Assembly: GCF_013315695.1 (NCBI RefSeq)
Contig: NZ_CP054353.1
Reading direction: 5' to 3' (one strand)
DNA: 64,000 nucleotides
Source of the DNA: Escherichia coli
Lineage (GTDB): Bacteria > Pseudomonadota > Gammaproteobacteria > Enterobacterales > Enterobacteriaceae
Part shown: in pieces, positions 51,186 through 52,454 of the stretch
Layout: the number at the start of each line of letters is the position of its first letter
How positions within the stretch are numbered: position 1 is the first letter of the stretch
Notes under the pieces: model-generated
What the model was told of the DNA's origin: nothing
What the model saw: the letters and a program-made list of their open reading frames with translations, nothing else
Databases searched by the model: none
Made by a program: the position numbers and the translations under genes

Positions 51186-52454
51186 TTATTTGACCCGCAG
51201 TAAATCAGAACTTCGCGTTGTATAACGTGGTGAAAGCATGGCACGCTTCATCTGCCATTGTTGCTGGATCCCCTGCCCGGCAAAATAGAGTGTTCCTCTG
51301 CCCTCTTTAGCATTTAGCGTATCCATTACCGCCATCAATTGCTAACTCCCGGGGCGCGGTGCGTTGTCATCGAATAAATTGAGCTGCGCGACTCCCTGAC
51401 TGAAGAAATCTCCCAGCATCACGCCCGCTTTTTGGTAGCGATGGCCCGCTTGCCAGATGGCATCCAGAGATCGCGTAGCGGCGTTAATGATATCCCTGCT
51501 GTCCTGAGTGGGCGTCAGCAGTTTTACCGACGCGCTATTGCCGTAATAAGGTTCATTGAGCGCAAATGGTGACGTCTTAATAAACGTGGAGATAAACCGA
51601 CAATATTGATGCTCGCTGCGAAGTTTTTCCGCCGCCCGGGCAGCGTAACTACAAATGGCCTGCCGCATCGACGTATAATCCGTGATGCGTTCACCAAACG
51701 AACGGGAACAGATAATTTCCTGCTTCGTCGGTGCAAACTCTTCCAGTTGCAAACAGGGTTCGCCGCGCAGTTCACGCACCGTTCTTTCGAGCACGACATT
51801 AAAATGTTTACGGATAAACCGGATATCTGTATCCGCCAAATCGAGAACGGTTTTGATCCCCATCGCATCCAGTTTTTTGCTGATCCGCCGTCCAATCCCC
51901 CAGACTTCATCCACGGGGAGAGCAGACATTAATTTACGCTGGCGTTCCAGATTTGATAAATCCACCACCCCACCCGTCTGCCGCTGCCATTTTTTTGCCG
52001 CATGATTGGCAAGCTTAGCCAGCGTTTTGGTCTGGGCGATCCCCACACCAACAGTAAGATGGGTACATTGTAGCACCGTTGCGCGAATTTCTCTGCCAAA
52101 ATCAGTCAGATCGCGACAATTACGCACACCGGTCAGATCGCAGAATGCCTCATCAATACTGTAAATCTCGACGCGGGGCGATAGTTCTTCCAGCGTCGAC
52201 ATCACCCGATTGCTCATGTCTGCGTAAAGCTCATAATTGCTGCTAAAGCAAACCACGCCACAGCGACGAAACAGATCTTTTTGTTTGAACCAGGGATCGC
52301 CCATTTTAACACCCAGCGCCTTTGCCTCAGCGTTTCGGGCGATAACGCAACCGTCATTATTCGATAGCACAACCACTGGTTTACCCCATAAATCAGGGCG
52401 AAACACCGTCTCACAGCTGGCATAAAACGCGTTTACATCACAGAGGGCAAACAT
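51186..52454 (-). pseudogene. umuC: Translesion DNA polymerase V catalytic subunit UmuC, interrupted by in-frame amber codon (TAG at 51342-51344)
   Basis: Y-family polymerase ORF stops after ...DDNAPRPGS (370 aa); the same frame continues QLMAVMDTLNAKEGRGTLYFAGQGIQQQWQMKRAMLSPRYTTRSSDLLRVK to TAA at 51186-51188, giving 422 codons if TAG were a sense codon. Confidence 0.8.

What the first reader, a model, noticed from the sequence alone, without database searches (positions are those of the whole stretch)
51186..51344. umuC carries an in-frame amber codon that removes the last ~51 residues
The ORF ends at TAG (51342-51344) after ...NAPRPGS, yet the same frame continues without further interruption for 51 sense codons to a TAA at 51186-51188, giving a 422-codon product if the TAG were a sense codon (recalled K-12 UmuC has Glu here). 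This is a single-base nonsense change in an otherwise intact SOS mutagenesis gene, with an intact LexA box upstream. The truncated protein would lack the C-terminal region.
Basis: seen in the sequence. Interest (0 to 1): 0.55.

Follow-up and report, generated by a model that had tools for sequence, protein, structure and literature searches.

The report
Lineage-specific amber stop in umuC
A single G-to-T change puts a real, inherited stop codon in the E. coli error-prone DNA polymerase gene umuC, removing the small end domain that binds its partners UmuD' and RecA, so this is an ordinary young pseudogene already flagged in RefSeq.

Summary
umuC (minus strand, 52454..51186) has TAG at codon 371 (51344..51342), then 51 more in-frame sense codons to TAA. 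The only difference from the closest intact relatives is G->T (GAG->TAG), and K-12 has Glu there.

It is not a read error. Two distinct genomes carry it: the window and the complete genome MSB1_4I. The exact 370-aa product is on record from 267 contigs, including named isolates, gut metagenomes and SRA assemblies. The otherwise identical intact protein is on 641 contigs. Only 1 of 5,426 complete E. coli genomes has the TAG, and RefSeq annotates it there as a pseudogene, 'internal stop'.

The stop falls exactly at the start of Pfam DUF4113 (residues 371-421). That domain holds the RecA-binding motif and the UmuD'-binding tail, and published deletions of 1-26 C-terminal residues abolish Pol V mutagenesis. 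The catalytic core, the clamp motif QLNLF (357-361), umuD and the LexA box remain.

In MSB1_4I, the supD, supE and supP alleles are absent and tyrT/tyrV (supF) are wild type. No second Pol V gene was found on its chromosome or in the plasmid stretches read.

Other E. coli lineages carry independent umuC lesions. Verdict: real, inherited, most likely Pol V-null; ordinary and low interest.

The parts
52893..52912 (-). LexA (SOS) box of the umuDC operon, TACTGTGTATAAAAACAGTA
   Evidence: The CTG-N10-CAG core is intact. One spacer base differs from K-12's TACTGTATATAAAAACAGTA. The box is identical in MSB1_4I, AF3 and the metagenome loci.
52454..52873 (-). umuD, intact (139 aa)
   Evidence: ORF. 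It differs from K-12 UmuD only by V34I and is annotated as intact WP_000897372.1 in MSB1_4I.
51345..52454 (-). umuC codons 1-370: catalytic core (IMS 5-150, HHH 172-200, little finger IMS_C 245-360)
   Evidence: Pfam coordinates. NCBIfam NF002955 UmuC scores 786 bits (cutoff 431) over model positions 1-370 of 422. Catalytic residues D6, D101 and E102 and steric gate Y11 are present.
51372..51386 (-). beta-clamp-binding motif QLNLF (residues 357-361), retained upstream of the stop
   Evidence: Sequence. Motif position taken from PMC3716654.
51342..51344 (-). amber codon TAG at codon 371; the mutated base is window 51344 (G->T on the coding strand)
   Evidence: All intact relatives and K-12 have GAG (Glu).
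51186..51341 (-). untranslated remnant: codons 372-422 plus TAA, i.e. the rest of Pfam DUF4113 (RecA-NT motif plus UmuD'-binding tail). It contains a 49-aa ORF starting at ATG 51335.
   Evidence: Pfam DUF4113 covers residues 371-421, model positions 1-51 of 51, E = 6e-22. The 49-aa ORF matches positions 374-422 of the UmuC model. Gene callers list it as a separate gene on 420 contigs.
51346..51350 (-). Shine-Dalgarno-like GGGAG, 7 nt before TTG and 10 nt before ATG of the leftover ORF (also present in intact alleles)
   Evidence: The anti-SD duplex is -6.9 kcal/mol, against -3.6 for the native umuD site and -4.7 for the native umuC site. That places it in the top 8% of windows within the gene. 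Whether it is used is not known.
51148..51167 (.). G+C-rich hairpin between the convergent umuC and dsbB genes
   Evidence: Terminator-like site. umuC is the last gene of its operon, so the stop codon has no downstream gene to affect.

Best explanation
This is a real, vertically inherited nonsense mutation (GAG->TAG, E371amber) in the chromosomal umuC of one E. coli sub-lineage, and the gene is a young pseudogene.

SOS induction should still transcribe umuDC and produce UmuD. Translation of umuC ends at residue 370. The product keeps the Y-family polymerase core and the beta-clamp motif. It lacks the whole C-terminal DUF4113 domain, which holds the RecA-N-terminus-like motif that docks RecA and the terminal tail that binds the UmuD' dimer.

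Without those contacts, UmuD'2C and the active mutasome UmuD'2C-RecA-ATP cannot assemble, and the orphan core is probably degraded by Lon. The predicted phenotype is loss of Pol V translesion synthesis and of SOS (UV or chemical) mutagenesis, while UmuD functions remain.

Shown here: the mutation, its inheritance, the exact domain removed, and the lack of the suppressor alleles checked in the sister genome. Inferred: the loss of function, from published deletion experiments.
For: Sequence and polarity:
- The gene has a single internal stop at codon 371.
- It is the only difference from the nearest intact alleles.
- AF3, the intact relative used as outgroup, has G (coding strand) at window 51344 where the window and MSB1_4I both have T.

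Inheritance, not error:
- The window and MSB1_4I differ at about 12 other sites plus one indel in 64 kb, yet share the TAG.
- The exact 370-aa product is on 267 contigs and in 455 index blocks. Sources include UMEA 3304-1, UMEA 3190-1, an STF entry, two gut metagenomes and SRA assemblies.
- Loci L007 and L009 are identical to the window across 4.7-7.1 kb.
- The same protein with E371 is on 641 contigs.
- RefSeq annotates the gene as a pseudogene, 'internal stop'.

Domain removed:
- Pfam DUF4113 covers residues 371-421, the full model.
- The NCBIfam UmuC model is matched at positions 1-370 by the truncated product and 374-422 by the leftover ORF.

Function of the lost part, from the literature:
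- DUF4113 is a RecA-NT motif followed by the main UmuD'-binding tail (PMC6511836).
- RecA N113 cross-links to UmuC R367, S370 and Q372 (PMC11791011).
- Deleting the last 26 residues abolishes UmuD' binding and SOS mutagenesis. Deleting 1-3 residues makes cells essentially non-mutable and UmuC Lon-sensitive (PMC11791011, citing Jonczyk & Nowicka 1996, Sutton & Walker 2001 and Goodman et al. 2016).
- UmuD' binds the C-terminal 25 residues (PMC3901139).

No rescue found:
- The window holds no tRNA gene.
- MSB1_4I has wild-type tyrT/tyrV (GTA) and glnV/glnX (CTG).
- The supD version of serU matches perfectly in only one genome (DSM 498), and no complete genome has a full-length supP-version leuX match.
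- The MSB1_4I chromosome has only one umuC-like place even at distant sensitivity.
- No Pol V-like gene is annotated in the plasmid stretches read.
Against: - No phenotype, protein or transcript data exist for this lineage, so loss of function is inferred from K-12 deletion mutants, none of which ends exactly at residue 370.
- The primary deletion papers could not be read here and are cited second-hand.
- The rest of the gene shows no further decay. That fits a recent event but also does not exclude some retained use.
- The suppressor check was done on the sister genome, not the window's own genome. It did not cover tyrU, trpT or rarer suppressors.
- About 8 kb of MSB1_4I plasmid 2, 32 kb of plasmid 3 and any further plasmids were not read.
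Confidence: 0.87

Rival explanations
1. Sequencing or assembly error: the true base is G and umuC is intact.
For: Only 1 of 5,426 complete genomes has the 61-mer with TAG. No reads were available to inspect.
Against: The same base is present in two distinct genomes. The exact truncated product is on 267 contigs from unrelated projects and sample types, including isolates from different countries, gut metagenomes and SRA runs. An identical random error across these is not credible.
Confidence: 0.01
2. The amber codon is read through, by a suppressor tRNA, weak RF1 or a leaky context, so useful amounts of full-length UmuC (with Gln, Tyr or similar at 371) are still made and Pol V still works.
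For: - The downstream 51 codons are perfectly preserved.
- The window's RF1 carries a private D71E change.
- The base after the stop is C (UAG-C). From general knowledge this is not the strongest termination context, and near-cognate tRNA-Gln gives low basal UAG read-through in E. coli.
Against: - In the sister genome, tyrT/tyrV and glnV/glnX have wild-type anticodons.
- The supD version of serU matches perfectly in only one genome (DSM 498), and no complete genome has a full-length supP-version leuX match. The supE query did find lab K-12 strains, so the method works.
- RF1 D71E is conservative, absent from MSB1_4I which has the same TAG, and found in an unrelated lineage.
- Preservation of the downstream codons is expected anyway, because the nearest intact relative differs at only 7 sites in 64 kb.
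- Basal read-through of about 1% or less of an already scarce protein is unlikely to support normal mutagenesis (inference).
Confidence: 0.03
3. The truncation is functional or selected rather than neutral decay. One version: UmuC(1-370), which still has its clamp-binding motif, acts on its own, for example by competing at the beta clamp. Another version: the 49-aa DUF4113 peptide is made by re-initiation and, with UmuD'2 and RecA, forms a split or modified Pol V. A third version: loss of SOS mutagenesis itself was favoured in this human-associated lineage.
For: - The stop sits exactly at a domain boundary.
- The clamp motif is retained.
- A good SD-like GGGAG precedes the leftover ORF, whose TTG and ATG start candidates begin 3 and 6 nt after the stop codon.
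- The allele has persisted through diversification into hundreds of sampled genomes.
- umuC has been hit independently in other lineages.
Against: - The SD-like sequence is ordinary coding sequence shared with intact alleles, so it was not selected for this role.
- Nothing is known to tether a free DUF4113 peptide to the polymerase core.
- UmuC without UmuD' contact is reported to be Lon-sensitive.
- Persistence and recurrence are equally expected for neutral loss of a dispensable gene.
- The other lesions were found through a search that can only detect C-terminal fragments, so their position is biased.
Confidence: 0.06

Closest known systems
E. coli K-12 UmuC (b1184, NP_415702.1), catalytic subunit of DNA polymerase V
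   Same: Same locus and neighbours (hlyE, umuD, umuC, dsbB, nhaB) with a LexA box upstream. The coding sequence has the same 1269-nt length with 19 nucleotide differences. Catalytic residues and the clamp motif are conserved.
   Different: Codon 371 is TAG instead of GAG. There are also four amino-acid polymorphisms: R130C, D183E, P261T and T375A. T375A lies after the stop. C130 is shared with the nearest intact alleles, while CE10 keeps R130.
Engineered UmuC C-terminal deletions (last 26 residues, or last 1-3 residues) described in the Pol V literature
   Same: They remove the UmuD'-binding tail. They are reported as non-mutable, unable to bind UmuD' and Lon-sensitive (PMC11791011 and PMC6511836).
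   Different: The natural allele removes more: 52 residues, which also takes out the RecA-NT motif. It arose in wild isolates and has not been tested experimentally.
umuC pseudogene of E. coli MSB1_4I (NZ_LR898874.1, locus tag JMX41_RS10670, 'internal stop')
   Same: Identical umuC sequence including the TAG, and the same gene neighbourhood.
   Different: It is a different genome of the same clade: about 12 SNPs and one indel separate it from the window over 64 kb, including RF1 D71E, which is private to the window.
Other natural umuC disruptions in E. coli (1-bp deletion at nt 1008; 13-bp deletion at nt 933-945)
   Same: They also split umuC into an N-terminal core ORF (344 or 340 aa) and a C-terminal DUF4113-containing ORF (77 aa), at the same chromosomal locus.
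   Different: They are frameshifts, not a nonsense codon. They occur at other positions and in other genetic backgrounds, and they keep GAG at codon 371. They are therefore independent events.

Membership tests
UmuC / DNA polymerase V catalytic subunit (NCBIfam NF002955; Pfam IMS + IMS_C + DUF4113) | Y-family polymerase core with catalytic acidic residues (D6, D101, E102) | tested here: met
   Pfam IMS covers residues 5-150 with E = 2.9e-42. D6 and D101-E102 are present. NF002955 scores 786 bits against a cutoff of 431.
UmuC / DNA polymerase V catalytic subunit (NCBIfam NF002955; Pfam IMS + IMS_C + DUF4113) | Little-finger domain followed by the internal beta-clamp motif QLNLF | tested here: met
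   IMS_C covers residues 245-360. QLNLF is at 357-361. The motif is as defined in PMC3716654.
UmuC / DNA polymerase V catalytic subunit (NCBIfam NF002955; Pfam IMS + IMS_C + DUF4113) | C-terminal DUF4113 domain (RecA-NT motif plus UmuD'-binding tail) on the same polypeptide | tested here: not met
   The domain is encoded (residues 371-421), but a TAG at codon 371 separates it from the core. The gene belongs to the family by descent, but the predicted product is not a complete UmuC.
UmuC / DNA polymerase V catalytic subunit (NCBIfam NF002955; Pfam IMS + IMS_C + DUF4113) | Operon with umuD under a LexA box | tested here: met
   umuD is intact and overlaps the umuC start (ATGA). The LexA box lies at 52912..52893.
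Pseudogene by internal stop (as used in NCBI PGAP annotation) | Premature stop relative to full-length close homologues, with the remainder of the frame still alignable | tested here: met
   The gene differs by one base from intact alleles. PGAP flags the identical gene as 'internal stop'.
Pseudogene by internal stop (as used in NCBI PGAP annotation) | Loss of the gene's function | not testable with these tools
   Loss of function is inferred from published C-terminal deletions. No phenotype data exist for this lineage.
Suppressed or programmed read-through amber codon | A cognate suppressor tRNA (CUA anticodon) in the genome | tested here: not met
   Tested in the sister genome MSB1_4I. tyrT/tyrV have GTA and glnV/glnX have CTG. 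No supD or supP allele was found. The window has no tRNA gene. tyrU, trpT and the window's own genome outside the window were not checked.
Suppressed or programmed read-through amber codon | The stop codon is conserved across related lineages as a feature of the gene | tested here: not met
   Only one clade has it. The 61-mer around the TAG is found in 1 of 5,426 complete genomes, and the nearest relatives have GAG.
Split gene whose two products reassemble | Both parts are translated and associate | not testable with these tools
   Only an SD-like GGGAG and a nearby ATG/TTG are seen. There is no expression or interaction evidence.

The most novel reading that the evidence does not exclude
The clade is a natural 'split Pol V'. 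The polymerase core (1-370, clamp motif intact) and a 49-50-aa DUF4113 peptide, re-initiated just after the stop codon (TTG 3 nt, ATG 6 nt downstream) behind a good SD-like site, are both made. Together with UmuD'2 and RecA they would give a reduced or altered translesion activity. Alternatively, the truncation was positively selected as an anti-mutator state in a human-associated lineage; the sister genome MSB1_4I carries CTX-M-14.
Probability: 0.05. Interest if true: 0.5.

Novelty: already known. Interest (0 to 1): 0.12.

Why it matters
As biology it matters little. It is one more strain-specific pseudogene in a dispensable SOS gene, and public annotation already marks it.

Its modest value is practical. 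It defines a naturally occurring, widely sampled E. coli clade predicted to lack Pol V, sitting beside a sister group with the identical but intact allele (267 versus 641 contigs). That pairing is a ready-made natural comparison for asking how much Pol V contributes to mutation supply and resistance evolution in clinical E. coli; the sister genome MSB1_4I carries CTX-M-14.

It also shows that the stop cleanly removes DUF4113, so these isolates are natural 'delta-DUF4113' strains for anyone studying mutasome assembly.

Tried and rejected
- **Sequencing error:** rejected. The allele is in two distinct genomes and hundreds of contigs.
- **The window is simply MSB1_4I:** rejected. About 12 SNPs and one indel separate them.
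- **Amber suppressors:** the window has no tRNA gene. I located the tRNA-Tyr and tRNA-Gln operons of MSB1_4I by synteny, after one wrong guess caused by the record's orientation. Both have wild-type anticodons. Searches with CUA-anticodon versions of serU and leuX found no such allele in MSB1_4I. The supE search worked as a positive control but listed only 45 of 155 hits, so the direct read was needed.
- **A defective RF1:** the window's private D71E is conservative, absent from MSB1_4I and present in an unrelated lineage. I rejected it as an explanation.
- **A mutator signature among the private SNPs:** there are too few sites to say anything.
- **Compensation by a second Pol V:** none was found on the MSB1_4I chromosome at distant blastn sensitivity or in the 100 kb of plasmid 2 and 50 kb of plasmid 3 that I read.
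- **A solved structure of the UmuC C-terminus:** none is in the PDB copy by sequence search.
- **Primary papers:** Sutton & Walker 2001 and Goodman et al. 2016 are not held in the library.
- **Literature on the strains or on umuC pseudogenes in natural isolates:** nothing relevant was found.
- **Sequence type of the lineage:** not determined. No MLST resource was available. CE10 and IAI39 are the nearest well-characterised reference strains.

Full report
**1. Checking the observation**

The region reads as the first-stage reader described. On the minus strand, umuD (52873..52454, 139 aa) overlaps by ATGA the start of a 370-codon ORF. That ORF ends ...NAPRPGS followed by TAG at 51344..51342. 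Translating the whole stretch 52454..51186 in one frame gives a single internal stop at codon 371. After it come 51 sense codons (QLMAVMDTLNAKEGRGTLYFAGQGIQQQWQMKRAMLSPRYTTRSSDLLRVK) and then TAA at 51188..51186. The neighbours are nhaB, dsbB, umuC, umuD and hlyE, which is the E. coli umuDC locus.

K-12 MG1655 umuC has the same 1269-nt length and carries GAG (Glu) at codon 371. A LexA box lies upstream of umuD at 52912..52893. It reads TACTGTGTATAAAAACAGTA, with the CTG-N10-CAG core intact and one spacer base different from K-12.

**2. One base, and its direction**

Against 5,426 complete E. coli genomes, umuC is found in 5,422, and exactly one genome, MSB1_4I (NZ_LR898874.1), is 100% identical. 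The next best genomes, MS 21-1 and AF3, differ at a single base: nt 1111, T here and G there, so TAG versus GAG. CE10 differs at that base and one other.

A 61-mer centred on the TAG is perfectly matched in only 1 of the 4,910 genomes that matched it. In a three-way alignment of the whole 64 kb, the window and MSB1_4I share the T while AF3 has G (coding strand). The change is therefore derived in their common ancestor.

**3. Real and inherited, not a read error**

The window is not the MSB1_4I record. About 12 substitutions and one 1-bp indel separate them over 64 kb, several of them clustered in the tandem ldr repeats. So two distinct genomes carry the stop.

The exact 370-aa product is recorded on 267 contigs and listed in 455 index blocks. 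It carries GenBank entries from E. coli UMEA 3304-1 and UMEA 3190-1 and an STF-series entry. It also appears in two ENA metagenome assemblies, which I take from their labels to be human gut samples, and in SRA-derived assemblies. Two of the retrieved loci are identical to the window over 4.7-7.1 kb apart from scaffold Ns. The third, from a metagenome, has 23 clustered differences but the same TAG.

The same protein with Glu at 371 (WP_000457605.1) is on 641 contigs, and the 49-aa ORF left after the stop is on 420. The TAG therefore marks a sizeable sub-clade within a lineage. The best-known reference strains among its close relatives are CE10 and IAI39. From my own knowledge these belong to phylogroup F; I did not determine the sequence type.

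**4. What is lost**

Pfam places IMS at residues 5-150, the HHH motif at 172-200, the little finger (IMS_C) at 245-360, and DUF4113 at 371-421 covering model positions 1-51 of 51. The stop therefore falls on the first residue of DUF4113 and removes that domain and nothing else.

NCBIfam's UmuC model (NF002955, 422 positions) is matched at positions 1-370 by the truncated product (786 bits, cutoff 431) and at 374-422 by the leftover ORF. The catalytic residues D6, D101 and E102 and the steric gate Y11 are present. So is the beta-clamp motif QLNLF at 357-361 (motif from PMC3716654). By sequence search, no solved structure covers the UmuC C-terminus.

**5. How it most likely works**

Published work assigns both partner contacts of UmuC to the lost segment:
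- Its first ~30 residues resemble the N-terminal oligomerisation motif of RecA and are proposed to dock the RecA subunit of the active mutasome.
- Its last ~28 residues are the main UmuD' site (PMC6511836).
- RecA N113 cross-links to UmuC R367, S370 and Q372, the residues on either side of this stop.
- Deleting the last 26 residues abolishes UmuD' binding and SOS mutagenesis.
- Deleting even 1-3 terminal residues makes cells essentially non-mutable and makes UmuC a Lon substrate (PMC11791011; its references were identified; see also PMC3901139).

From this I infer the mechanism. After LexA cleavage, the operon is transcribed and UmuD is made. UmuC stops at residue 370 and can bind neither UmuD'2 nor RecA, so neither UmuD'2C nor UmuD'2C-RecA-ATP can form. 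The orphan core is probably degraded. The predicted result is a Pol V-null, SOS-non-mutable lineage that keeps UmuD.

The mutation, its inheritance and the domain boundary are shown here. The functional consequence is inferred, because the deletion experiments were done in K-12 and I could read them only second-hand. umuC is the last gene of the operon and faces dsbB across a hairpin, so no polar effect is expected.

**6. Rescue routes checked**

Suppression:
- The window has no tRNA gene.
- In MSB1_4I, the two tRNA-Tyr genes next to the window have GTA anticodons.
- After I located the operon by synteny, glnV and glnX proved to have CTG anticodons.
- A serU sequence with a CUA anticodon matches perfectly only in strain DSM 498. 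A leuX sequence with CUA has no full-length perfect match anywhere.
- The equivalent glnV query found C600, DH5alpha and other laboratory K-12 strains, which shows the approach works.

Release factor 1: prfA lies in the window (13236..12154) and carries a private D71E change. The change is conservative and absent from MSB1_4I, which has the same TAG. It also occurs in an unrelated E. coli background, so it does not explain anything.

A second Pol V: the MSB1_4I chromosome has one umuC-like place even at distant blastn sensitivity. No such gene is annotated in the 100 kb of plasmid 2 and 50 kb of plasmid 3 that I read.

**7. A speculative reading**

The codons just before the stop (CCC GGG AGT) contain GGGAG, 7 nt before a TTG and 10 nt before an ATG that open the leftover 49-50-aa ORF. 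Its predicted pairing with the 16S rRNA 3' end is -6.9 kcal/mol. That is stronger than at the native umuD and umuC starts (-3.6 and -4.7) and in the top 8% of windows within the gene. Re-initiation could therefore produce a free DUF4113 peptide.

This sequence is ordinary coding sequence shared with intact alleles, and there is no evidence of expression or of any function. I rate this reading, together with the idea of selection for an anti-mutator state, at about 5%.

**8. How ordinary this is**

Disrupted genes are frequent in these genomes:
- In this same 64 kb, treA is frameshifted in MSB1_4I and AF3 and is truncated to a 524-aa ORF in the window.
- AF3 has its own internal stop in a leucine-rich-repeat gene.

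umuC itself has been hit independently elsewhere:
- A 1-bp deletion at nt 1008 occurs in two different backgrounds.
- A 13-bp deletion at nt 933-945 occurs in a third.
- All of them keep GAG at codon 371, and the resulting 77-aa fragment alone is listed in 148 index blocks.

That search could only find C-terminal fragments, so the position of these lesions is biased.

**9. Comparison, novelty and verdict**

The gene is a member of the UmuC family by descent and by every feature except the one the stop removes: DUF4113 on the same polypeptide. It fits the known category 'pseudogene by internal stop', and that is how public annotation already labels it. I found no paper discussing it.

The added facts are:
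- It is a clade allele, not a one-off.
- It removes exactly one domain.
- The suppressor alleles checked are absent from the sister genome.
- Similar losses recur in the species.

Interest is low (0.12). The main use is as a natural Pol V-null clade with an intact sister group for mutagenesis or resistance-evolution studies.

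Noticed in passing
window 12154-13236 (minus strand, prfA); SNP at 13024: Release factor 1, which reads UAG, carries a D71E substitution private to the window. MSB1_4I, AF3 and, as I recall it, K-12 have Asp. The same variant protein occurs in an unrelated E. coli background (12 contigs, about 133 nt differences per 4 kb), so it looks like a tolerated polymorphism.
   Followed up: partly
window about 27537-29240 (treA) and 29550-30250 (IS1): treA (periplasmic trehalase) is disrupted. The longest ORF is 524 aa, and the gene is annotated 'frameshifted' in both MSB1_4I and AF3, with an IS1 copy just downstream. The lesion is older than the umuC stop, because AF3 shares it.
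   Followed up: partly
window 8352-8501: A tight cluster of window-specific differences (six substitutions and a 1-bp deletion) lies in and next to the tandem Ldr type I toxin repeats. It looks like gene conversion between repeats or an assembly difference rather than point mutation.
   Followed up: no
related loci L002 (MS 21-1) and L004 (CE10), locus positions about 1930-2550; the homologous site in the window is 52906-52912: In CE10, IAI39, MS 21-1 and others (38 of 5,426 complete genomes), a segment carrying a ClbS/DfsB-family gene, with ISEc53 next to it in CE10 and MS 21-1, ends inside the umuDC LexA box. It replaces the box's left half (TACTGT) and the -35 region. Those strains may express umuDC without normal LexA control, or not at all.
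   Followed up: partly
related loci L020, L022, L023 (umuC at about 1467-2734): Independent umuC inactivations occur in other E. coli lineages: a 1-bp deletion at nt 1008 in two backgrounds, and a 13-bp deletion at nt 933-945. Each gives a 340-344-aa core ORF plus a 77-aa DUF4113 ORF.
   Followed up: partly
window 38776 (homologous to AF3 record 1350151-1351587): Relative AF3 has its own internal stop in a leucine-rich-repeat protein gene that is intact in the window and in MSB1_4I. This illustrates how common strain-private nonsense mutations are.
   Followed up: no
MSB1_4I record NZ_LR898874.1, about 1.6 Mb, 2.19 Mb and 3.6 Mb (loci L015, L005, L016-L017): Gene order shows that the MSB1_4I record runs opposite to K-12, while the umuDC region runs co-linear with K-12. 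This implies a large inversion around the replication terminus relative to K-12.
   Followed up: no
window 53249-54160 (hlyE, plus strand): hlyE (haemolysin E / ClyA) is full length (303 aa) here and in MSB1_4I, whereas it is frameshifted in the related strain CE10.
   Followed up: no
window 1172, 4223, 13024, 48233: The four window-private substitutions outside the repeats include two A-to-C changes on the plus strand. There are too few sites to call a mutational signature or to tell real changes from assembly errors.
   Followed up: no
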